The notes under the pieces: model-generated
Databases searched by the model: none
What the model saw: the letters and a program-made list of their open reading frames with translations, nothing else
Told to the model about the DNA's origin: nothing
Origin: Candidatus Borrarchaeum weybense
Lineage (GTDB): Archaea; Asgardarchaeota; Sifarchaeia; Borrarchaeales; Borrarchaeaceae
Direction of reading: 5' to 3'
Assembly: GCA_019057385.1 (NCBI GenBank)
Contig: JAHQJS010000004.1
Coordinates: 352,001 to 416,000, forward strand
Length of the DNA: 64,000 bases
Translations under genes and position numbers: made by a program
In this document: positions 43,597 to 51,020 of the stretch, piece after piece
Layout of the letters: the number at the start of each line of letters is the position of its first letter
Numbering within the stretch: position 1 is the stretch's first letter

Positions 43597-43711
43597 TTGC
43601 TTATGTATCGGTCGAAATCGATTTTTACGATAAAAGCTTATATATCTTAACAGAAAAAATCTTATGGTATTTAGGTAATGCAATATATGTCTATTTTTGG
43701 GGGAGCAGTAA

Positions 43712-44020
43712 ATGAGTGAGACTCAAAAAGCTCTAAAAAACACTTAAGGAAAAACTAATTGAAGACATTAAAAAGTCTGGCTATCCACTAGAAATCGAAA
43801 TATCGTCCCTCTTGGAGAGAAAATGGTTGATCTTTATAACCAATATTATACAGACAAAAACACAAATCAGCCAAGAGAAATAGACATATTAGCTATCGAT
43901 TCTCGTCTTAATGATTTTGATGCCGAAATGAATTTGGTAATCGAATGTAACAAAAGCAATACACATGCATGGGTATTTTTCCTACATGAACTCTCCCGAG
44001 GCTTATGGAGAAATACTTGA
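43712..44020 (+). pseudogene. Frameshifted, truncated PD-(D/E)XK nuclease-like gene
   Basis: KKSGYPLEIEISSLLE in one frame continues as YYTD....PREIDILA...LVIECNKS..HAWVFF in another. The expected Lys of ExK is replaced by Asn and there is an early stop. Confidence 0.6.
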
Positions 44021-44147
44021 AAAAATAGGCACAAAGGCTTGATTATCTTGATTTAAAAAAGAACCAAGCCTTTATACTTAACTAACAAGATTTCTAATGC
44101 GATAATAAACATAGCATAGGGGGTACACAAGCTTTATAAATTATACA

Positions 44148-44879
44148 TTGTTTATTTTATATGAGATGACTATAATGCAGGAAGATCCAATAATCAAACT
44201 TATAGTTGATGGTCACTATCCTGAAGTCCTTGATATAAGCGAGCAAGTGGATGAAGGTTATAATCTTTCGTTTAATAAGACTGCTTCCCGACTGTATCTT
44301 CGTAAAGGGAATAAAGCAGTTATTGTACCTAAGGGTTTTGAATGGTTTGCGATAAACTATTACAACTTGAAAAAGATGGTCGAACAAATTCCCATCAAAA
44401 TATTCATCAGTTATCCGAGAGAAGACCTTTGGCTAGCTTATAAGTTACACAAAATGCTCTCTGAAGTAGGCGTGCCTGTGTATTTGGGGGAATTATATCC
44501 CGAGCCAGGTGTAAGTCTATGGGACCAGATTGAAACCATGATTCGAAATTCTGATATTTTCATAATCCTGTGGACTCAAAACGCGCTTAATTCTGCATTC
44601 GTGAATCAGGAAATAGGTGTAGCAAAAAGTGCGGAAAAAATAATCATTCCTATAGTCGAGGAAGGAGTTGACCTAAAAGGCGCTTTAGAGGGAAAGGCGT
44701 ACATTTGCCTTAATAAGAAAGATGTTCAAGAAACGCTAAGTTCAATTTGTTCTGCCTTGCACAGATTTTTATCGCAGAAACTTGAGGAGATTAAGAAAAA
44801 ACAATCACAAGGGTTGGCTTTCGCGTTAGGTGCCATTGCTTTCTTGGGGTTACTGTTTGCACTCGGAAATAAAGGATGA
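44148..44879 (+). CDS. TIR-domain protein with a C-terminal transmembrane anchor
   Basis: IFISYPRED..LA..L...L...GV.V, IRNSDIFIILWT.NA..S.FV.QEIG.A....K.IIPI, with the catalytic Glu present. C-terminal GLAFALGAIAFLGLLFALG. The start may be ATG 44166 or 44175. Confidence 0.88.
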   Translation: MFILYEMTIMQEDPIIKLIVDGHYPEVLDISEQVDEGYNLSFNKTASRLYLRKGNKAVIVPKGFEWFAINYYNLKKMVEQIPIKIFISYPREDLWLAYKLHKMLSEVGVPVYLGELYPEPGVSLWDQIETMIRNSDIFIILWTQNALNSAFVNQEIGVAKSAEKIIIPIVEEGVDLKGALEGKAYICLNKKDVQETLSSICSALHRFLSQKLEEIKKKQSQGLAFALGAIAFLGLLFALGNKG

Positions 44880-44930: not shown

Positions 44931-45311
44931 ATGGTCAGAATGAATAGTTGGAGTTATATAGCCAGGGTAGTGTTGAATCTACCAGAACATACAGATCGAA
45001 AAGTTATGAAGTGGTCAGTTCCTCACCCCTTGGAGGCGGGTTTTAGAAAAGGACACGGTGATTACGCTGAACAAAAAGGTGATTATAGACTTGCTTTACT
45101 GGATGGTAGAGGTCTACACATAAAAGAATACGATAATTATTATCTCATACATTGGGATAGATGGGATCCGTCAATTAACCCTTTGGGACACATATTCGAG
45201 GATGCACCTCATTGGCTGCCTGTTTTAGGAATTGGTGGTATCTTAACCACATTCTCAATTGCAGCACTCGTGGATAAAGTGGCGGAAGCACTCCATAAAA
45301 GAAAGGAATAA
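44931..45311 (+). CDS. Small protein with a His/Asp-rich domain and a C-terminal transmembrane helix
   Basis: DYR...DGRGLHIKEY..YY.IHWD..DP..NPLGH..EDAP followed by WLPVLGIGGILTTFSIAALV. It lies between the TIR and RNase III genes. Confidence 0.75.
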   Translation: MVRMNSWSYIARVVLNLPEHTDRKVMKWSVPHPLEAGFRKGHGDYAEQKGDYRLALLDGRGLHIKEYDNYYLIHWDRWDPSINPLGHIFEDAPHWLPVLGIGGILTTFSIAALVDKVAEALHKRKE

Positions 45312-45315
45312 GAAT

Positions 45316-46107
45316 TTGGTGAACATCTTGACTCATTTTAAGGAAATCTTTGAACACAATTATTCTGGTCAGTGGTCAGAGTTCCAAAAAATCGGAAAAA
45401 AAATCCAGAACATCATTCACTATGATTTTGTAAACGAAGAGACTCTCTGGAACGCTATGTCTATACGCGGATCTGCATTACCTTCTGAGGAATTTGAGAG
45501 ACTGGAATTTCTTGGAGATTCAATTTTAAAAGCAATTCATGGAATTTCATTATATGAAAAAAGTGAAGAATTTCAACCAGGAGAATTAAGTGTTTTTAGG
45601 CAAAACTTGGAGAATAATGAAAATCTTGCACCACTTGCAGAAGAACTGAAGTATAATGAAATTGGGGCATTGTTAGGAATAGGTAAACTAAGTCCAAACC
45701 AAGCTGCTGACTGCTTCGAGGCATTAATCGGAGCAATTTATGTAGATAAAGGAAATCTAGAAGGTATGATTGGTCTCGCGAAAGGGATTACTCATTTTGA
45801 AAAGAAGCTTAAAGAACTTCGAAAAGCACCATGGGGATCAAAGGATCCAAAATCTTTTCTCCACGAATGGGTTCGCAAGAAATATAGTAATGAGATTAGT
45901 GTCGATTACCCAAGTGTAAATGAAGGAACCAGTAATGCTCCCCAATTTAAAGTGCGTGTTATTATTAAACGAAAAATTAACGACAAGATTGAAATTGAAG
46001 GGCCGTGGGTAGGTAATTTCCCTAAAAAAAAGGAAGGAGAAAAAGAAGCGGCTAAAGCACTTCTTTCAAAATTAGAGGAGGAGGGTAAGCTTGACAGATC
46101 TTCGTAA
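45316..46107 (+). CDS. rnc: Ribonuclease III with C-terminal dsRNA-binding domain
   Basis: Signature ERLEFLGDSIL, second acidic motif ADCFEALIGAIYVD, and dsRBD DPKSFLHEW...PQFKVRV...KKKEGEKEAAKALL. Start placed at TTG 45316 or GTG 45319; the track start is 45259. Confidence 0.95.
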   Translation: MVNILTHFKEIFEHNYSGQWSEFQKIGKKIQNIIHYDFVNEETLWNAMSIRGSALPSEEFERLEFLGDSILKAIHGISLYEKSEEFQPGELSVFRQNLENNENLAPLAEELKYNEIGALLGIGKLSPNQAADCFEALIGAIYVDKGNLEGMIGLAKGITHFEKKLKELRKAPWGSKDPKSFLHEWVRKKYSNEISVDYPSVNEGTSNAPQFKVRVIIKRKINDKIEIEGPWVGNFPKKKEGEKEAAKALLSKLEEEGKLDRSS

Positions 46108-48421
46108 CTCAGAAAGCGAAAAGAATTCAGCAGAATTTTTGTTGAATGTTGTTCCTTTGAAGGTTCAATGGAATAAGAACTGGCAAATCTATGAAATTGA
46201 AGTGGAGGATTGGAACAAGAAAGAAGGTTATAACTTGATACGCGAGTTCAAATTATCTTTTTCTCTAGAAGACGTATTAATTGAAAGTCATGGCCGCCTT
46301 TTAGTGCTTCTCCCTCTAAAAGACCATATCAGTGAAGATGATTTAAATGCATCAAAAACTGCCCTCACACAAAAATTAGGAAAAGGAGTAAATTTAATTC
46401 CAATTAACGATCCGCTAAAGCAAGCTTTTGAAGATGACATAGTTTTGGAAGCAATTCGTAAAGGTTTTGGAGAAATAATTACATACGAACTAAACAAACT
46501 TGGATTCAAGAAGATCGGATCTGGAGGGGGTATTGGAGAGTTCTTACCGCCTGAGAATTGGCTAAATAAAACTCATGAAGTTAACCTCGATAACTCGAAG
46601 ATATTTAGGGCATTTCGTTTATCAATCATTCCGCGTACAGAAGAAAAGCAATTTTATCTTGCTGCAGATCTCAAAGGGAAATACAAAGAGCAACAAAACT
46701 TACTTGATTTATTGAAATTAGGTATAAAGAGAGAAAAATCCTTCAAAGCGTTGACAGATATTGGAAAATCGTGGCAAATTTCCTTAAGCCCAGAAAACGA
46801 AAAACTTTTTCCAAATAGTATCGAACAGGAAACCTTTGAAATTCAAAGTATCGAATCTTGGAATGATATCCAAGAGAACCCATTAGGATGGGGACGATAT
46901 GCTAAAGACTCCTTGAAAAACTTAGTGAAACAGAAGGTTATTTCAGAACCCATGAAAAGCGAACCGTTTCTAGTCGTGAAACCTTCTGGAAGAATGATCA
47001 AGAATCCTAATATATACCTTACTTTACCTGCGCGATTCTTTTATCGTCATTTGAGTCAACCCAGAATAAAAAATGAAAAGCACGATAGGGAGTTCAAAAA
47101 ATTCACTCGGATTTCTGTTCAAAAGAGATACAACCTCATATCTGCATTTTTTGAATTATTGAAAGAAAAAGCATTAATTGGATCAAAGATAAGCTTTGAG
47201 GGACATCCCATTGGATTTTCAAGACCATCAGTAAAAAAGCATATTGTCCGAGAATATGGCAAGCCTCCTAAACTAAATGAATGGGGTGTTGAGTCTTGGG
47301 GGTTACTCAAAAAGATTGATGTGTTTTATGAAAAGAAAATATCTTATAAAGTGGAAAAATTCTACGAAATCTTAGAAAAATATATCCAAGACCTTTTAAG
47401 TCGCTCTAAGATGGACCAACCACAGGTGGAAGTCAACCTACATCCTATTAAAGATGGTAAAATTCCTTTTAACAGAATCCTTGGTGAACTAGATCAAACT
47501 TGTTGTCCGATATTTTTTAGGGGAAGTAACTTTGGTAACTATAGGAAAATTAAGACTAAATTTACACAAGAAAAAGGGATTCCTGTTCAGGTCATCCGAG
47601 AAAAAACGCTTTTTGAAAGCAGGAATCTCTATGCCTTGGTACGAACCGTATTTCCTCAAATGATCGCGAAATCTGGTGGTTTGCCATATAGATTAGCACC
47701 ACCTCTCCTTGATCGGGCAATTTTAATTGGCCTTGATAAAGCCCGTGATTCTTCAGGTAGGAGACCTTCTGCAAGTGCAGGTGTTGCGGCTGTTACACCT
47801 GAAGGGCGATATGTGTCTGGCGCATCAACACCACTGGAAAATAATTTCACAGATTTCATTGATGTCGATAAACTCGCGCCCGATCTTTTACGTGAACTTG
47901 AAGAAAAGAAATTTGAAAAATCATATGAATATGCAGTTATCTTGCGTGATGGATCCCCGAAAACATGTATGCATGAGGTTCCACAGTGGAGAAAACATCT
48001 TCAAGAATATCAAAAGGATTTCATTTTTATTGCATCACGAAAGAGTCATGAATTCCGTGTGTTCCCTAAAGAGATCTCTGATTCTTCTTCACAAAAAGGT
48101 ATCGTGAAGTACAAAATTCCTCTAGTATTAAGTGGAGCGCCATTGCAACCGTCTGACTTCTTAGTTATTGCTGCTAAAGCACCACGAGGCACTCCTCAGC
48201 CTGTCCTGTACACGATAATGGAAAATACCACACCTCTTTCAAATAAGGAGATCAAGGAAAAGGTTATTGCTCAGATCATTAGCATGTCAATGCTTTGTTG
48301 GGAATCTCCTTTGCCAACCAGTCAGCCATTACCGCTTCATTATGCAGATAAACTTGCTGAGTTTACTCAGCTGGTTCAAATGGCGTGGAATTCTTCCAAC
48401 AGGTTTCCGATGTTTATTTAA
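46091..48421 (+). CDS. ago: Long prokaryotic Argonaute (MID-PIWI with N-terminal lobe), catalytic Asp residues present
   Basis: MID motifs YRKIK, IPVQVI and QMIAKSGG. PIWI motifs IGLDKA, ILRDG, RKSH.FRVF, GTPQP and PLPLHYADKLA, with a hydrophobic C-terminus PMFI. 776 aa, with a strong GAGGAGGAGG RBS inside rnc. Confidence 0.92.
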   Translation: MTDLRNSESEKNSAEFLLNVVPLKVQWNKNWQIYEIEVEDWNKKEGYNLIREFKLSFSLEDVLIESHGRLLVLLPLKDHISEDDLNASKTALTQKLGKGVNLIPINDPLKQAFEDDIVLEAIRKGFGEIITYELNKLGFKKIGSGGGIGEFLPPENWLNKTHEVNLDNSKIFRAFRLSIIPRTEEKQFYLAADLKGKYKEQQNLLDLLKLGIKREKSFKALTDIGKSWQISLSPENEKLFPNSIEQETFEIQSIESWNDIQENPLGWGRYAKDSLKNLVKQKVISEPMKSEPFLVVKPSGRMIKNPNIYLTLPARFFYRHLSQPRIKNEKHDREFKKFTRISVQKRYNLISAFFELLKEKALIGSKISFEGHPIGFSRPSVKKHIVREYGKPPKLNEWGVESWGLLKKIDVFYEKKISYKVEKFYEILEKYIQDLLSRSKMDQPQVEVNLHPIKDGKIPFNRILGELDQTCCPIFFRGSNFGNYRKIKTKFTQEKGIPVQVIREKTLFESRNLYALVRTVFPQMIAKSGGLPYRLAPPLLDRAILIGLDKARDSSGRRPSASAGVAAVTPEGRYVSGASTPLENNFTDFIDVDKLAPDLLRELEEKKFEKSYEYAVILRDGSPKTCMHEVPQWRKHLQEYQKDFIFIASRKSHEFRVFPKEISDSSSQKGIVKYKIPLVLSGAPLQPSDFLVIAAKAPRGTPQPVLYTIMENTTPLSNKEIKEKVIAQIISMSMLCWESPLPTSQPLPLHYADKLAEFTQLVQMAWNSSNRFPMFI

Positions 48422-49037
48422 TAACGAGTTGTTCAATATCTTCTCCTAATCTGTCTACAACTCAAATGGAGCATTACACTATATATGAGACAATATAGCA
48501 ACTCGGAGAATCTATGATCCTGCAAATCATCATAATTCATATCAGATACCTAACAGTAGAACAAAAAATAGGATACGAAAATTTGTAGGTATAGCCATAA
48601 AAAGTAATGGGGCGCAAAGTTTTCCTAAAAACGTCAAACTCATAATATTAACCCTGGCGGAATAAGGTAAAGAGATTGACGTGTATGGAGGCGCCGATTC
48701 ATTTCGGCAAACAATACTGAGTAAGCATTGAAAAATTATCTTTCTCAGACAGTAGGCATTGATATAGATGATAAATGACTTTCAATGTAGTCTCCCCCAA
48801 TTTAAAAGAAAGGGAATCCAAAATATATTATGGTAAAAAATAACAAGAAAATGAAGAGAAACTAATAATGAATTATAAAGAAATTATTGGGACTTAAGTA
48901 ATAGTTTGATTAATTTCTTGCCTATTATATTATTTGAATGCTTTAGCGATACGTTATCCTTAAATACTTCCTTTGAAAAAGATCTTGATCAAAATTAATA
49001 TACCTACTAATATTGGAATAACGGGGGGTTATGTCAC

Positions 49038-49427
49038 ATGAATTCAATTCAATTACTAAAGTTAATTGAAAAGTGTGGATCCATTAGTGGTCGAAAAAGA
49101 CTCCAAAAGCTTGTTTTCATCTCAAAAGAAAAGCATAACGTTCCTTTTGAATATAATTTCATTTTACACCTTTTTGGACCTTATTCTTCTGATTTGCAAA
49201 ATGATCTCTCCTTTCTTGTTGATATCGGATTCATAAAAGAAATACCACCAACTCAAGAAATTGAACCATATTTTTATGAATTAACAGACGATGGCAGGAG
49301 ATTTTGTGAAAAAAAAACATTAGATTCGTCTACAGAACAACAATTAACCGATGTTGTTGCAGAACTGTGCAATATTTCAACTGAGGAATTAGTACATATG
49401 TCATATCAGTTATTTTCATCGAAGTAA
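49038..49427 (+). CDS. YwgA-like winged-helix protein
   Basis: ISGRKRLQKLVF, YNF....FGPYSSDL..DL..L...G.I.E and YELT..G motifs. Confidence 0.78.
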   Translation: MNSIQLLKLIEKCGSISGRKRLQKLVFISKEKHNVPFEYNFILHLFGPYSSDLQNDLSFLVDIGFIKEIPPTQEIEPYFYELTDDGRRFCEKKTLDSSTEQQLTDVVAELCNISTEELVHMSYQLFSSK

Positions 49428-51020
49428 ATATTTCTCTTCAAATATGCGTTTAATCTTATCCCTTTTTTCTCTTGGCGAAAAAACGAGTATTTTTTCCGAT
49501 ATTTTACTCCTAATACGAAGCAGTTCACGTATAGGCTCTGCAACTGGCTCGTACGCAATACTTTCTGGGAAAAATCTCCCATTTTCCACTTTTAAAATGG
49601 GAATTCTCTGTTCGATCTCTCTGAGTTGTTTTGCCCTATTTGGTAAGTTGTCTATAATTACATCGCCCTTTACAATTCCTTCTTCTTCGGAAAACGAATC
49701 TTCAATCCATTTATTTAATGCGAAGGGTTCCTTACTATCTCTTAGTTCAGTAACTTTGTCTCTTGCATCAATAGATAGAGCACCCAACGTAGTTTCATAA
49801 GCTTTAACATACAAGCGTCTATTTCTAATTCGAGTACATAAGTCATATACAAGTTCAGAATCGCTATTTTCTAACCATTGAAGAAAACCTTTGTCATTCA
49901 TTGAAAGGTATACGGCGCAAAATTCTTCCTTATTCCAGTCTTCAGTCTCGATTTTCTCATAGATTGCTCTTTGTAACATTTTTTCAGCGCTTCTTACAGT
50001 TTTATGAAAATATACTCGATCATACATCCAATCTCTTGCTAGAACAAAGCTTTCAAAGGCACTAAATCCCTTTTCGCGTATAACAAAATGATATCTTTTT
50101 TCTCCTTCAAATTCTCTTTCTATAAAGGCTAATGATGCTATAAGTCTGTTGATATCAAAATATCCTAAGTGTACTCCTGTATTATGGGTGTCTCTCAATA
50201 AATACTCCATTCGATCAATGTCAAGTGGTGAGGAAATTAGATCTCTTATTAATCTCAGTGGTGCTTCATCGCAACCCTTTCCTTTAATGATTTCTACAAC
50301 TTCAGAAGAATCAATGTCTATCGCATGCAACGCTCTTTTTACCCCATGATCTATCATTAATTCGGAAAAAACTTCATGATTTCCCCAGTTAAGATTTTTC
50401 AGGACAAACTCACCAGCATGGCTAAAAGGACCATGTCCAACATCATGAAGAATTGCAACAGCTTTAAAGAGGTTGCTAAATTCTTTTTCTAAGAATTCTT
50501 CTAGTTTTACAGGCGGTTCTCCTTCAACTCTTACATTCACTTTTTTAAGCATCAAATCAGTGAGATATTTTGTACCTAGAACGTGTGCGAATCTTGTGTG
50601 AGTCGCATTTGGATACACTAGATGTGCCATTCCCAGTTGACAAAAACCTCTTAATCTTTGTATTTCGTATGTGTCGATAAGTACCCTTTCCCATGGTTCC
50701 AAAGCAATATTTCCGAAAATAGGGTCATTAACATAGAGCTCTTTGAATCTCTCCTTTTCTAAAAGTTCGCATTCTTTTAGATAACAGTTGTATTGCTTGA
50801 TGAAATGTCCTTTTTTTATATTTGGATTTGATACACTTAGTCTTCCATTGATAACGTCCATCTGTTCTTTTGCGGAGGAATCAAGAGGCGTTTGTGTATC
50901 AATTATTCCTTGAAGGAAATTTTGATCTCCTGGACTTAAATTTTCAATGTCGCAATCTCTCAATTTAAACATCCTTGCAATCTTAAAGCGATTTTTATCA
51001 AAAGGTGCTGATTCGCTCAC
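49416..51020 (-). CDS. HD-domain phosphohydrolase, SAMHD1/YwfO-like dNTP triphosphohydrolase family
   Basis: DPIFG.I, QRLR...QLG.A..VYP.ATHTRF.H.LG, LHDVGHGPFSH, HE, DIDRM.YL.RD and R..MY..VYFHK motifs. Confidence 0.92.
   Translation of the reverse strand: MSESAPFDKNRFKIARMFKLRDCDIENLSPGDQNFLQGIIDTQTPLDSSAKEQMDVINGRLSVSNPNIKKGHFIKQYNCYLKECELLEKERFKELYVNDPIFGNIALEPWERVLIDTYEIQRLRGFCQLGMAHLVYPNATHTRFAHVLGTKYLTDLMLKKVNVRVEGEPPVKLEEFLEKEFSNLFKAVAILHDVGHGPFSHAGEFVLKNLNWGNHEVFSELMIDHGVKRALHAIDIDSSEVVEIIKGKGCDEAPLRLIRDLISSPLDIDRMEYLLRDTHNTGVHLGYFDINRLIASLAFIEREFEGEKRYHFVIREKGFSAFESFVLARDWMYDRVYFHKTVRSAEKMLQRAIYEKIETEDWNKEEFCAVYLSMNDKGFLQWLENSDSELVYDLCTRIRNRRLYVKAYETTLGALSIDARDKVTELRDSKEPFALNKWIEDSFSEEEGIVKGDVIIDNLPNRAKQLREIEQRIPILKVENGRFFPESIAYEPVAEPIRELLRIRSKISEKILVFSPREKRDKIKRIFEEKYLLR

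What the first reader, a model, noticed from the sequence alone, without database searches (positions are those of the whole stretch)
45316..48421. RNase III gene overlapping a long Argonaute gene: a candidate minimal prokaryotic RNAi pathway (dsRNA processor + slicer)
Seen: an intact RNase III (ERLEFLGD and DCFE acidic motifs, plus a dsRBD) whose last 17 nt overlap the start of a 776-aa Argonaute, with the Ago RBS (GAGGAGGAGG) inside rnc. The two genes are therefore probably co-transcribed and translationally coupled. Established: RNase III domains form the catalytic core of Dicer/Drosha and leave 5'-phosphate ends, which Ago MID pockets bind. pAgo partners are typically Sir2/TIR-APAZ, Cas4/Mrr/PLD nucleases or helicases, RNase III is uncommon in archaea, and Asgard Argonautes are candidate relatives of eukaryotic AGO/PIWI. 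Inference: the RNase III cuts dsRNA (viral or antisense) into guides loaded on this Ago, which would make it a two-gene RNAi-like defence module in a likely Asgard archaeon. I cannot check how new this exact coupling is.
Basis: partly seen in the sequence, partly recalled or inferred. Interest (0 to 1): 0.95.

Follow-up and report, generated by a model that had tools for sequence, protein, structure and literature searches.

The report
Asgard RNase III–Argonaute gene pair
An Asgard (Sif-group) archaeon has a double-stranded-RNA nuclease gene overlapping an intact, eukaryote-like Argonaute gene; the pair is a real, conserved module and a good candidate for a pre-eukaryotic "dice and slice" pathway, but this gene and this pairing are already published and remain untested.

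Summary
An RNase III gene with a dsRBD (45319-46107) overlaps by 17 nt a 776-aa Argonaute gene (46091-48421). A GAGGAGGAGG ribosome-binding site lies inside rnc.

The pairing is not chance.
- RNase III lies next to the Ago in 14 of 16 assessable homologous loci (Ago identity about 26-90%).
- All ten rnc-to-ago junctions measured overlap by 8-20 nt.
- The two proteins co-diverge (Mantel r 0.91).

The Ago keeps a DED(D/H) slicer tetrad and a 5'-phosphate pocket, which suits RNase III products. Its predicted fold matches eukaryotic PIWI/AGO and HrAgo1 slightly better than bacterial Argonautes. The linked rnc belongs to a distinct subfamily and is not the housekeeping enzyme.

It is not new. The protein is Asgard_ASG190_00881 ("Sif") in Bastiaanssen et al. 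2024, whose 2023 preprint already reported consecutive Rnc-asAgo genes in the HrAgo1 clade and "subclade 9". This scan also met the HrAgo1 locus earlier on other DNA (e1-5449020).

Mechanism is inferred only: guide type, target type, dicing and physical binding are all untested. The upstream TIR and membrane genes occur only here and in one close relative.

Interest is moderate. Class: already known.

The parts
45319..46107 (+). rnc: class-1-type RNase III with one catalytic domain (about aa 61-146) and one dsRBD (about aa 178-253). The ORF can also start at TTG 45316. It has a conserved N-terminal extension specific to the Ago-linked subfamily.
   Evidence: Pfam Ribonuclease_3 and dsrm. TIGR02191 scores 100.8 bits, below the 166.25 cut-off. 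Catalytic E64, D68, D132, E135 and invariant F8, F12, Y16, W20. Subfamily members score >=205 bits against <=93 bits for other Asgard rnc.
46075..46084 (+). Shine-Dalgarno-like GAGGAGGAGG for ago, inside the rnc coding sequence, 6 nt before TTG 46091.
   Evidence: Read directly from the sequence.
46091..46107 (+). 17-nt overlap of the rnc 3' end with the ago 5' end.
   Evidence: Overlaps of 8-20 nt occur in all ten rnc-to-ago loci measured.
46091..48421 (+). ago: long Argonaute of 776 aa with N-L1-PAZ-L2-MID-PIWI architecture. It is identical to published Asgard_ASG190_00881.
   Evidence: Pfam Piwi. AF2 model with pLDDT 87.3 and pTM 0.83. Full-length structural matches to PIWI, AGO and HrAgo1. 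Identity to the published entry.
47540..47671 (+). MID-domain 5'-phosphate pocket codons: Y484, K488, Q500, Q523, K527.
   Evidence: These residues align with Siwi residues 607, 611, 623, 645 and 649. They are invariant or >=90% conserved in 27 family sequences. HrAgo1 and PIWI proteins use the same pocket type with Mg2+.
47735..48349 (+). PIWI catalytic tetrad codons: D549 (47735-47737), E583 (47837-47839), D620 (47948-47950), D753 (48347-48349).
   Evidence: Alignment of 9 homologues. The tetrad is conserved, with D or H at the fourth position.
44166..44879 (+). TIR-domain protein with a C-terminal hydrophobic tail; first gene of the same-strand run. The ORF opens at TTG 44148 and in-frame ATGs lie at 44166 and 44175. 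It is an accessory gene, not part of the conserved core.
   Evidence: Pfam TIR_2 1e-16. PADLOC ThsB-like. Translation. Found with the module only here and in L018. TIR homologues elsewhere in the phylum lie in genomes where this Ago was not found.
44931..45311 (+). 126-aa protein with a C-terminal hydrophobic segment and no known family. It ends 7 nt before the rnc GTG.
   Evidence: No Pfam or PADLOC hit. Translation. 65% identical copy in L018.
44133..44140 (+). TTTATAAA, a possible archaeal TATA box about 25-35 nt before the TIR ATGs. It could be the promoter of a four-gene transcript.
   Evidence: Read from the sequence only; an inference.

Best explanation
This is a member of the Asgard-archaeal rnc-asAgo cassette, a mobile accessory two-gene module.

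Proposed mechanism:
1. A homodimeric class-1-type RNase III cuts double-stranded RNA, for example from viruses, transposons or convergent transcription. The products are short duplexes with 5'-phosphate ends.
2. The co-translated long Argonaute binds one strand through its 5'-phosphate MID pocket.
3. The Ago then slices complementary RNA with its DEDD PIWI site.

Shown here:
- domain content and catalytic residues of both proteins;
- the eukaryote-like full-length Ago fold;
- strict conservation, overlap and co-divergence of the pair;
- patchy, accessory distribution among defence-type neighbours.

Inferred:
- that the RNase III makes the guides;
- that guide and target are RNA;
- that the two proteins touch;
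- that the role is defence or silencing.
For: Linkage:
- rnc lies directly upstream and overlapping in all seven close homologues looked up.
- The same holds in the 36-38% identity subgroup.
- An RNase III-like gene lies directly downstream in the deepest branch.
- That makes 14 of 16 assessable loci.
- Ten junctions overlap by 8-20 nt, and Ago and Rnc pairwise identities correlate (Mantel r 0.91, p 1e-4).
- Genomic contexts differ between loci, so the pair moves as a unit.

Chemistry:
- The RNase III catalytic residues are intact. By established enzymology it leaves 5'-phosphate ends.
- The Ago pocket residues Y484, K488, Q500, Q523, K527 are the 5'-phosphate type.
- The slicer tetrad is intact.

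Fold:
- The Foldseek top 50 are all eukaryotic PIWI/AGO or HrAgo1.

Precedents:
- HrAgo1, which has an rnc neighbour, does RNA-guided RNA cleavage with 5'-P guides.
- In AmAgo-Agap, an overlapping upstream RNase gene makes guides whose 5' chemistry fits the Ago pocket.

Not housekeeping:
- The genome has three RNase III genes.
- A 155-aa catalytic-domain-only form is also present in the one complete same-genus genome.
- No same-genus genome has this Ago.
Against: - There is no expression, small-RNA or biochemical data for this clade.
- Class-1 RNase III has no PAZ/platform ruler, so product length is not set to guide size.
- Solo copies of the Ago-type rnc exist: a C7 paralogue in this genome, plus G308 and G044.
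- Two more distant Ago relatives lack rnc.
- In the deepest branch the RNase III-like partner has Ser at the E64 position. One of the two (L064) also has Arg at E61 and Asn at D132. This suggests the partner's role may be dsRNA binding rather than cutting, at least in that branch.
- Published trees place this clade unstably. It sometimes falls beside the MpAgo group, which targets DNA.
Confidence: 0.5

Rival explanations
1. Same module and same RNA guides made by RNase III, but the Argonaute targets invader DNA (plasmid or viral genomes) rather than RNA, as MpAgo- and AmAgo-type RNA-guided DNA nucleases do.
For: - Most characterised long catalytic pAgos act on DNA (background).
- In several published trees this clade groups, weakly, with the MpAgo clade.
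- The best validated RNase-Ago pair, AmAgo-Agap, targets DNA.
- Neighbours are defence-type genes.
Against: - The MID pocket is the 5'-phosphate type, unlike the 5'-OH pockets of MpAgo and AmAgo.
- Sequence and fold lean towards PIWI, AGO and HrAgo1, which cleave RNA.
Confidence: 0.2
2. The RNase III partner is not the guide maker. It may be a dsRNA-binding loader or sensor, may cleave guide-target duplexes downstream of Ago, or may only regulate the operon's own mRNA.
For: - RNase III-like partners in the deepest branch have lost the key acidic residue yet stay linked to the Ago.
- HrAgo1 loaded 5'-P small RNAs in E. coli without its own rnc.
- Ago-type rnc genes persist alone in some genomes.
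Against: - In the clade containing this window, all catalytic residues are conserved in 9 of 9 Rnc sequences, so cleavage is under selection.
- The E. coli host used for HrAgo1 has its own RNase III.
Confidence: 0.2
3. In this window the four genes form one abortive-infection system. Target recognition by guide-loaded Ago activates the membrane-anchored TIR NADase and the small membrane protein, as in SPARTA-like systems.
For: - TIR, the membrane protein, rnc and ago lie on one strand with gaps of 51 nt and 7 nt and then the overlap, behind one possible TATA box.
- The same order occurs in L018.
- TIR is a known effector of short-pAgo systems.
Against: - The TIR and small protein accompany the module only here and in one close relative (Ago 90% identical), out of 16 loci.
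- TIR homologues elsewhere in the phylum lie in genomes where this Ago was not found.
- There is no APAZ domain, and the Ago is long and catalytically intact, so it needs no separate effector.
Confidence: 0.07
4. The adjacency is chance, or a housekeeping rnc happens to lie next to an Argonaute.
For: RNase III is common in parts of the phylum.
Against: - The pair is adjacent in 14 of 16 loci across deep divergence, in different genomic contexts.
- The genes overlap and co-diverge.
- The rnc belongs to a distinct subfamily.
- Other RNase III genes are present in the genome.
Confidence: 0.02

Closest known systems
HrAgo1 locus of 'Ca. Harpocratesius repetitus' and the rnc-asAgo(-helicase) clusters of Bastiaanssen et al. 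(bioRxiv 10.1101/2023.12.14.571608; Nat Commun 2024, PMC11217426)
   Same: - Asgard host.
- Long, catalytically intact, eukaryote-like Argonaute.
- Same-strand neighbouring gene for RNase III plus dsRBD.
- 5'-phosphate MID pocket.
- The window's Ago is itself listed there as Asgard_ASG190_00881.
- The preprint reports consecutive Rnc-asAgo genes in the HrAgo1 clade and 'subclade 9'.
   Different: - It is a separate clade from HrAgo1 in all published trees. Structural alignment shows 16% identity, and there is no phmmer hit to HrAgo1 at 1e-3.
- The fourth catalytic residue is Asp here and His in HrAgo1.
- The genes overlap, so there is no spacer.
- The window has no helicase. Relatives carry an SF1 (AAA_11/AAA_12) helicase rather than a DExD/H one.
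- There is no biochemistry for this clade.
AmAgo-Agap (HEPN RNase) system, Agapov et al. 2024, PMC11162769
   Same: An RNase gene directly upstream of, and overlapping, a catalytically active long pAgo gene. The end chemistry of the RNase products fits the Ago MID pocket. It is the only validated case of a dedicated guide-making nuclease for a pAgo.
   Different: - The RNase is HEPN, acts on single-stranded RNA and leaves 5'-OH ends. Here it is RNase III, acts on dsRNA and leaves 5'-P ends.
- The hosts are bacterial.
- Targets are DNA.
- The MID pocket is non-canonical.
Eukaryotic Dicer/Drosha plus AGO/PIWI (RNAi)
   Same: - RNase III chemistry paired with a PIWI-domain slicer that has a 5'-P pocket.
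- The Ago's best sequence and fold matches are eukaryotic PIWI/AGO proteins.
- The Rnc has Asn at the position I assign to the eukaryote-type 'N5' active-site residue.
   Different: - The Rnc has one RNase III domain and one dsRBD, so it would act as a homodimer. It has no PAZ/platform ruler and no fused helicase.
- The position I assign to 'K6' is not Lys.
- The two functions are separate small genes in an operon.
SPARTA / short pAgo-TIR-APAZ systems
   Same: A TIR-domain gene lies in the same gene run as an Argonaute.
   Different: - The Ago is long and catalytically intact.
- The TIR protein has no APAZ domain and has a membrane tail.
- The association is limited to the window and one close relative.

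Membership tests
Asgard rnc-asAgo cassette (Bastiaanssen et al.) | Argonaute encoded in an Asgard archaeal genome | tested here: met
   The protein matches the published entry Asgard_ASG190_00881 (taxon 'Sif', 776 aa, TTG start, TAA stop). Named homologues are Helarchaeota, Heimdallarchaeota and Promethearchaeota MAGs.
Asgard rnc-asAgo cassette (Bastiaanssen et al.) | RNase III plus dsRBD gene adjacent to the Ago on the same strand | tested here: met
   Conserved in 14 of 16 loci.
Asgard rnc-asAgo cassette (Bastiaanssen et al.) | Flanking DExD/H helicase gene (the rnc-ago-helicase arrangement) | tested here: not met
   No helicase lies next to the pair in the window. Three relatives carry an SF1 AAA_11/AAA_12 helicase downstream.
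Asgard rnc-asAgo cassette (Bastiaanssen et al.) | RNA-guided RNA cleavage | not testable with these tools
   Needs biochemistry. Only the catalytic tetrad and 5'-P pocket could be checked.
HrAgo1 clade (sister of eukaryotic PIWI) | Groups with HrAgo1 (FWG169_03248) in phylogeny | tested here: not met
   In all published tree files read, the window's protein sits in a separate clade with 100% support. That clade holds ASG073_01058, ASG159_02762, ASG523_03052 and ASG190_00881. No phmmer or profile hit to HrAgo1 appears in the PDB searches.
Long catalytically active Argonaute | N-L1-PAZ-L2-MID-PIWI architecture with a DEDX tetrad | tested here: met
   The AF2 model aligns over residues about 11-776 with full-length PIWI, AGO and pAgo structures. 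Tetrad D549, E583, D620, D753.
Long catalytically active Argonaute | 5'-phosphate-binding MID pocket (Y/K/Q/K type) | tested here: met
   Y484, K488, Q500, Q523, K527 are conserved and align with the corresponding Siwi residues. That those Siwi residues bind the 5' phosphate is recalled from the Siwi structure paper. The HrAgo1 paper describes the equivalent pocket.
Bacterial-type (class 1) RNase III, Rnc | One RNase III domain plus one dsRBD, with the four acidic catalytic residues | tested here: met
   Pfam domains. E64, D68, D132, E135. Full-length alignment to bacterial RNase III structures.
Bacterial-type (class 1) RNase III, Rnc | Equivalog of housekeeping Rnc (NCBIfam TIGR02191 cut-off) | tested here: not met
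   Scores 100.8 bits against a cut-off of 166.25. It forms a distinct Ago-linked subfamily with an N-terminal extension.
Dicer/Drosha (class 2/3 RNase III) | Two RNase III domains in one chain, with PAZ/platform and/or helicase | tested here: not met
   A single RNase III domain in 263 aa. The high Drosha score is the sum of two domains each matching the one query domain.
Dicer/Drosha (class 2/3 RNase III) | Eukaryote-type extra active-site residues N5 and K6 (PMC9291653) | tested here: inconclusive
   N101 aligns with the Drosha Asn that I take to be N5 and is invariant. The presumed K6 position is N, K or D. I assigned these positions from motif alignment, because the paper's figure is not readable here.
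SPARTA-type short pAgo/TIR-APAZ | Short, catalytically inactive pAgo with a TIR-APAZ partner | tested here: not met
   The Ago is long and has a complete tetrad. The TIR protein shows only a TIR domain plus a hydrophobic tail.

The most novel reading that the evidence does not exclude
This clade's overlapping rnc-ago pair may be a surviving prokaryotic form of the ancestor of Dicer-Argonaute RNAi. On this reading, dsRNA dicing coupled to RNA slicing already worked in Asgard archaea before eukaryogenesis. This clade, as well as HrAgo1, would then branch at the base of all eukaryotic Argonautes, with its RNase III related to the Dicer/Drosha catalytic domains.
Probability: 0.12. Interest if true: 0.9.

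Novelty: already known. Interest (0 to 1): 0.42.

Why it matters
If the RNase III does feed 5'-phosphate small RNAs to this slicer, it would be a prokaryotic two-protein version of "dice and slice". That bears directly on whether RNA interference arose before eukaryotes.

The idea and this gene are already published, so what this check adds is practical:
- It shows the pair is a strictly conserved, co-inherited and probably co-translated unit, in a clade separate from HrAgo1.
- It defines the Ago-linked RNase III subfamily.
- It identifies compact, intact gene pairs suitable for direct biochemical testing.

Tried and rejected
- **Complex prediction.** Ago residues 13-776 with Rnc residues 1-170, both as alignments, gave "no answer" (score 0.00). 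This says nothing either way about binding. The dsRBD was left out because of the size limit.
- **Sequencing runs.** No RNA holder is listed for the locus, so expression could not be examined and read laying was not used.
- **Rfam.** No RNA family matched 42-52 kb at E<=1.
- **Word-based homologue search with the family alignment.** It found nothing beyond the nine close relatives. The exhaustive profile search was needed to find the rest.
- **Own phylogeny against eukaryotic Agos.** Not attempted, because the hits carry almost no labels. I relied on the published tree files instead.
- **Liang et al. 2014 (Rnt1p structure).** Not held, so the N5/K6 residue positions are my own assignment.
- **Pfam on two small ORFs.** The 126-aa ORF and the small ORF upstream of the TIR gene gave no hits.
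- **Rejected readings.** Sole housekeeping rnc is rejected. Chance adjacency is rejected. Membership of the HrAgo1 clade is rejected.
Full report
**1.

On the + strand, an RNase III gene ends at 46107 and a 776-aa Argonaute gene starts at TTG 46091, so the two share 17 nt. GAGGAGGAGG lies at 46075-46084, inside rnc and 6 nt before the TTG.

Alignment with homologues puts the rnc start at GTG 45319 rather than TTG 45316.

- Rnc hits Pfam Ribonuclease_3 and dsrm. Ago hits Piwi.
- The RNase III acidic residues E64, D68, D132 and E135 are conserved in nine Ago-linked Rnc sequences. So is E61, the Aquifex E37 position.
- The Ago tetrad D549, E583, D620 and D753 is conserved in nine homologues, with His at the fourth position in one.

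**2. Anatomy of the Argonaute**

An AlphaFold2 model built on a 27-sequence alignment is confident, with pLDDT 87.3 and pTM 0.83. It aligns over almost its whole length with full-length Argonautes.

- The top 50 Foldseek matches in the PDB are all eukaryotic PIWI or AGO proteins, plus HrAgo1 at rank 43.

|---|---|
| Drosophila Piwi | 29.6 |
| EfPiwi | 28.8 |
| AtAGO10 | 28.1 |
| HrAgo1 | 28.1 |
| RsAgo | 26.8 |
| CpAgo | 26.3 |
| AaAgo | 24.8 |
| MjAgo | 22.3 |
| MpAgo | 21.2 |
| PfAgo | 21.0 |
| TtAgo | 17.0 |

- By sequence, both the single protein and the family profile hit eukaryotic PIWI-clade chains in the PDB (best 4.7e-11). The only other hit is one cyanobacterial Ago.
- MID residues Y484, K488, Q500, Q523 and K527 are invariant or nearly so. 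They align column for column with Siwi residues 607, 611, 623, 645 and 649. I recall these as the Siwi 5'-phosphate ligands.
- HrAgo1 and PIWI proteins use the same pocket type with Mg2+ and the C-terminal carboxylate.
- The pocket therefore suits 5'-phosphorylated guides, the end type that RNase III leaves (established enzymology). It differs from the 5'-OH pockets of MpAgo and AmAgo.

**3. The pair is a conserved unit**

The Ago family is small. Nine close relatives came from the word-based search, and 23 representatives score below 1e-30 among 1.84 billion proteins. Every member that carries a name is from an Asgard MAG.

- rnc lies directly upstream in all seven close homologues looked up (47-90% identity).
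- The same is true in the 36-38% identity subgroup.
- In the deepest branch (about 26-29% identity) the order is ago, then an RNase III-like gene, then an unknown 640-680-aa gene.
- Two other distant relatives have no rnc neighbour.
- All ten rnc-to-ago junctions overlap by 8-20 nt. Pairwise identities of the two proteins are strongly correlated (Mantel r 0.91, p 1e-4). This shows inheritance as a unit, not more than that.
- The surroundings differ from locus to locus:

| Accessory neighbour | Loci |
|---|---|
| MoxR plus VWA | L015, L017, L020; VWA alone in L024 |
| SF1 helicase (AAA_11/AAA_12) | L019, L065, L066 |
| Small radical-SAM protein | L021, L032, L064, L024 |
| TIR plus small membrane protein | window and its 90%-identical relative L018 |

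**4. The RNase III is a dedicated paralogue**

The genome holds three RNase III genes:
- this one;
- a 78%-identical solo copy on contig 7;
- a 155-aa catalytic-domain-only form, which is also present in the only complete same-genus genome.

A profile of the Ago-linked Rnc splits the phylum's RNase III genes sharply. Six matches score 205 bits or more, and all others score 93 bits or less.

The subfamily has a conserved N-terminal extension with invariant F8, F12, Y16 and W20. It scores below the NCBIfam equivalog cut-off for housekeeping Rnc.

None of the four same-genus genomes (completeness 69-100%) has the Ago, and only 8 of 400 genomes in the phylum match it. It is an accessory, patchily distributed module.

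Nearby genes include a TIR protein, a PDC-M19A-like ORF and an HD protein with a weak dGTPase-like hit.

**5. It is already published**

Supplementary Dataset 1 of Bastiaanssen et al. 2024 (PMC11217426) lists Asgard_ASG190_00881 as taxon 'Sif', 776 aa, TTG start and TAA stop. This matches the window's gene. The rows of their trimmed alignments match the window's protein.

In all their tree files the protein sits in a 100%-supported clade with ASG073_01058 (Hod), ASG159_02762 (Loki) and ASG523_03052 (Sigyn). ASG147_01375 (Jord) is its sister in most of these trees. The clade is distinct from HrAgo1 (FWG169_03248).

Its position relative to the MpAgo clade and to the eukaryotic Agos changes between analyses, with supports of 16-49.

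Their December 2023 preprint states two things:
- Multiple rnc-asAgo-helicase clusters exist.
- Consecutive same-strand Rnc-asAgo genes occur only in the HrAgo1 clade and in 'subclade 9', a subclade weakly basal to eukaryotic Agos.

From the tree text and the synteny, this clade is very probably subclade 9. That is my inference, because the figure cannot be read here.

The journal version keeps only the remark about HrAgo1's own flanking rnc and helicase, and calls for experiments. I found no later paper testing an Asgard Rnc-Ago pair.

This scan had also met the HrAgo1 locus on other DNA (e1-5449020).

**6. Mechanism**

The best-supported reading is guide biogenesis by RNase III followed by slicing by Ago. 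It rests on:
- the conserved operon;
- the fit between RNase III product ends and the MID pocket;
- intact active sites in both proteins;
- RNA-guided RNA cleavage by HrAgo1 with 5'-P guides;
- the AmAgo-Agap system, in which an overlapping upstream RNase gene makes the Ago's guides.

Open points:
- whether the target is RNA or DNA;
- whether class-1 RNase III products have a useful length;
- whether the proteins bind each other.

A caution comes from the deepest branch. There the RNase III-like partner has Ser at the key E64 position, so a dsRNA-binding role cannot be excluded.

The TIR and membrane genes may be an added effector or simply neighbours. Their restriction to one lineage argues against a core role, as does the presence of TIR homologues in genomes where this Ago was not found.

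**7. Side detail on the active site**

Eukaryotic RNase III enzymes use two extra residues, called N5 and K6 (PMC9291653).

- By alignment with Drosha, the invariant N101 sits where I place N5.
- The position I take for K6 is N, K or D.
- Other Asgard Rnc sequences also have the Asn.
- The residue assignment is mine and unverified.

**8. Verdict**

This is a real, conserved and biologically attractive module. However, the gene, the association and the hypothesis are already in the literature, and nothing here tests function. I class it as already known, of moderate interest.

Noticed in passing
G000 contig C7:633077-633905 (L003:1301-2129) and C4:1031280-1031370 (L014:1504-1594): Possible relics of a second rnc-ago module in the same genome.
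- An intact solo rnc copy shares 82% DNA identity with window 45297-46127. The homology stops 36 nt into ago, and a tautomerase gene and a TnpB fragment follow.
- Separately, the last 91 nt of ago survive at 82% identity beside a convergent VWA gene. This is the same Ago-VWA neighbourhood seen in relatives.
   Followed up: partly
L063:8747-11670 and L064:8505-11195: In the deepest branch of the Ago family the gene order is ago, then an RNase III-like gene, then a conserved unknown 640-680-aa protein (31% identical between the two loci). The RNase III-like protein has Ser at the E64 position, and in L064 also Arg at E61 and Asn at D132. It may be an inactivated dsRNA-binding partner.
   Followed up: partly
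L019:5132-8770, L065:4506-7964, L066:3617-6928: A 1100-1200-aa SF1 helicase (AAA_11/AAA_12, Upf1/Dna2-like), followed by a 350-375-aa gene with no Pfam hit where scanned (L019, L066) and a second, homologous unknown gene, lies directly after rnc-ago in three loci. Helicase gene fragments lie near the pair in L018. The published model speaks of DExD/H helicases.
   Followed up: partly
L015, L017, L020, L024 and L014: bpMoxR-type AAA+ and VWA genes recur beside the rnc-ago pair, on either side and on either strand. A small radical-SAM gene recurs in L021, L032, L064 and L024.
   Followed up: partly
G308:C93:32005-32490 (L036:1489-1992): The complete same-genus genome that lacks the Ago keeps a truncated copy of the Ago-type rnc, with the catalytic domain only (73% identical). 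It lies among housekeeping genes (AhpC, a short-chain dehydrogenase).
   Followed up: partly
window 49038-49427 (+) and 49416-51020 (-): Downstream of ago lie a 129-aa ORF that matches the PADLOC candidate family PDC-M19A (6e-13) and an HD / HD_assoc_2 protein with a weak dGTPase-like match. Together with the TIR gene this suggests a defence-island setting.
   Followed up: no
window 43690-44040: A short ORF (43823-44020) and out-of-frame pieces before it read like a D...E-x-K nuclease motif. It may be a decayed small nuclease gene just upstream of the TIR gene. It has no Pfam hit.
   Followed up: partly
window 48422-49037: A 616-nt AT-rich non-coding gap follows ago. It has no Rfam match and its function is unknown.
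   Followed up: partly
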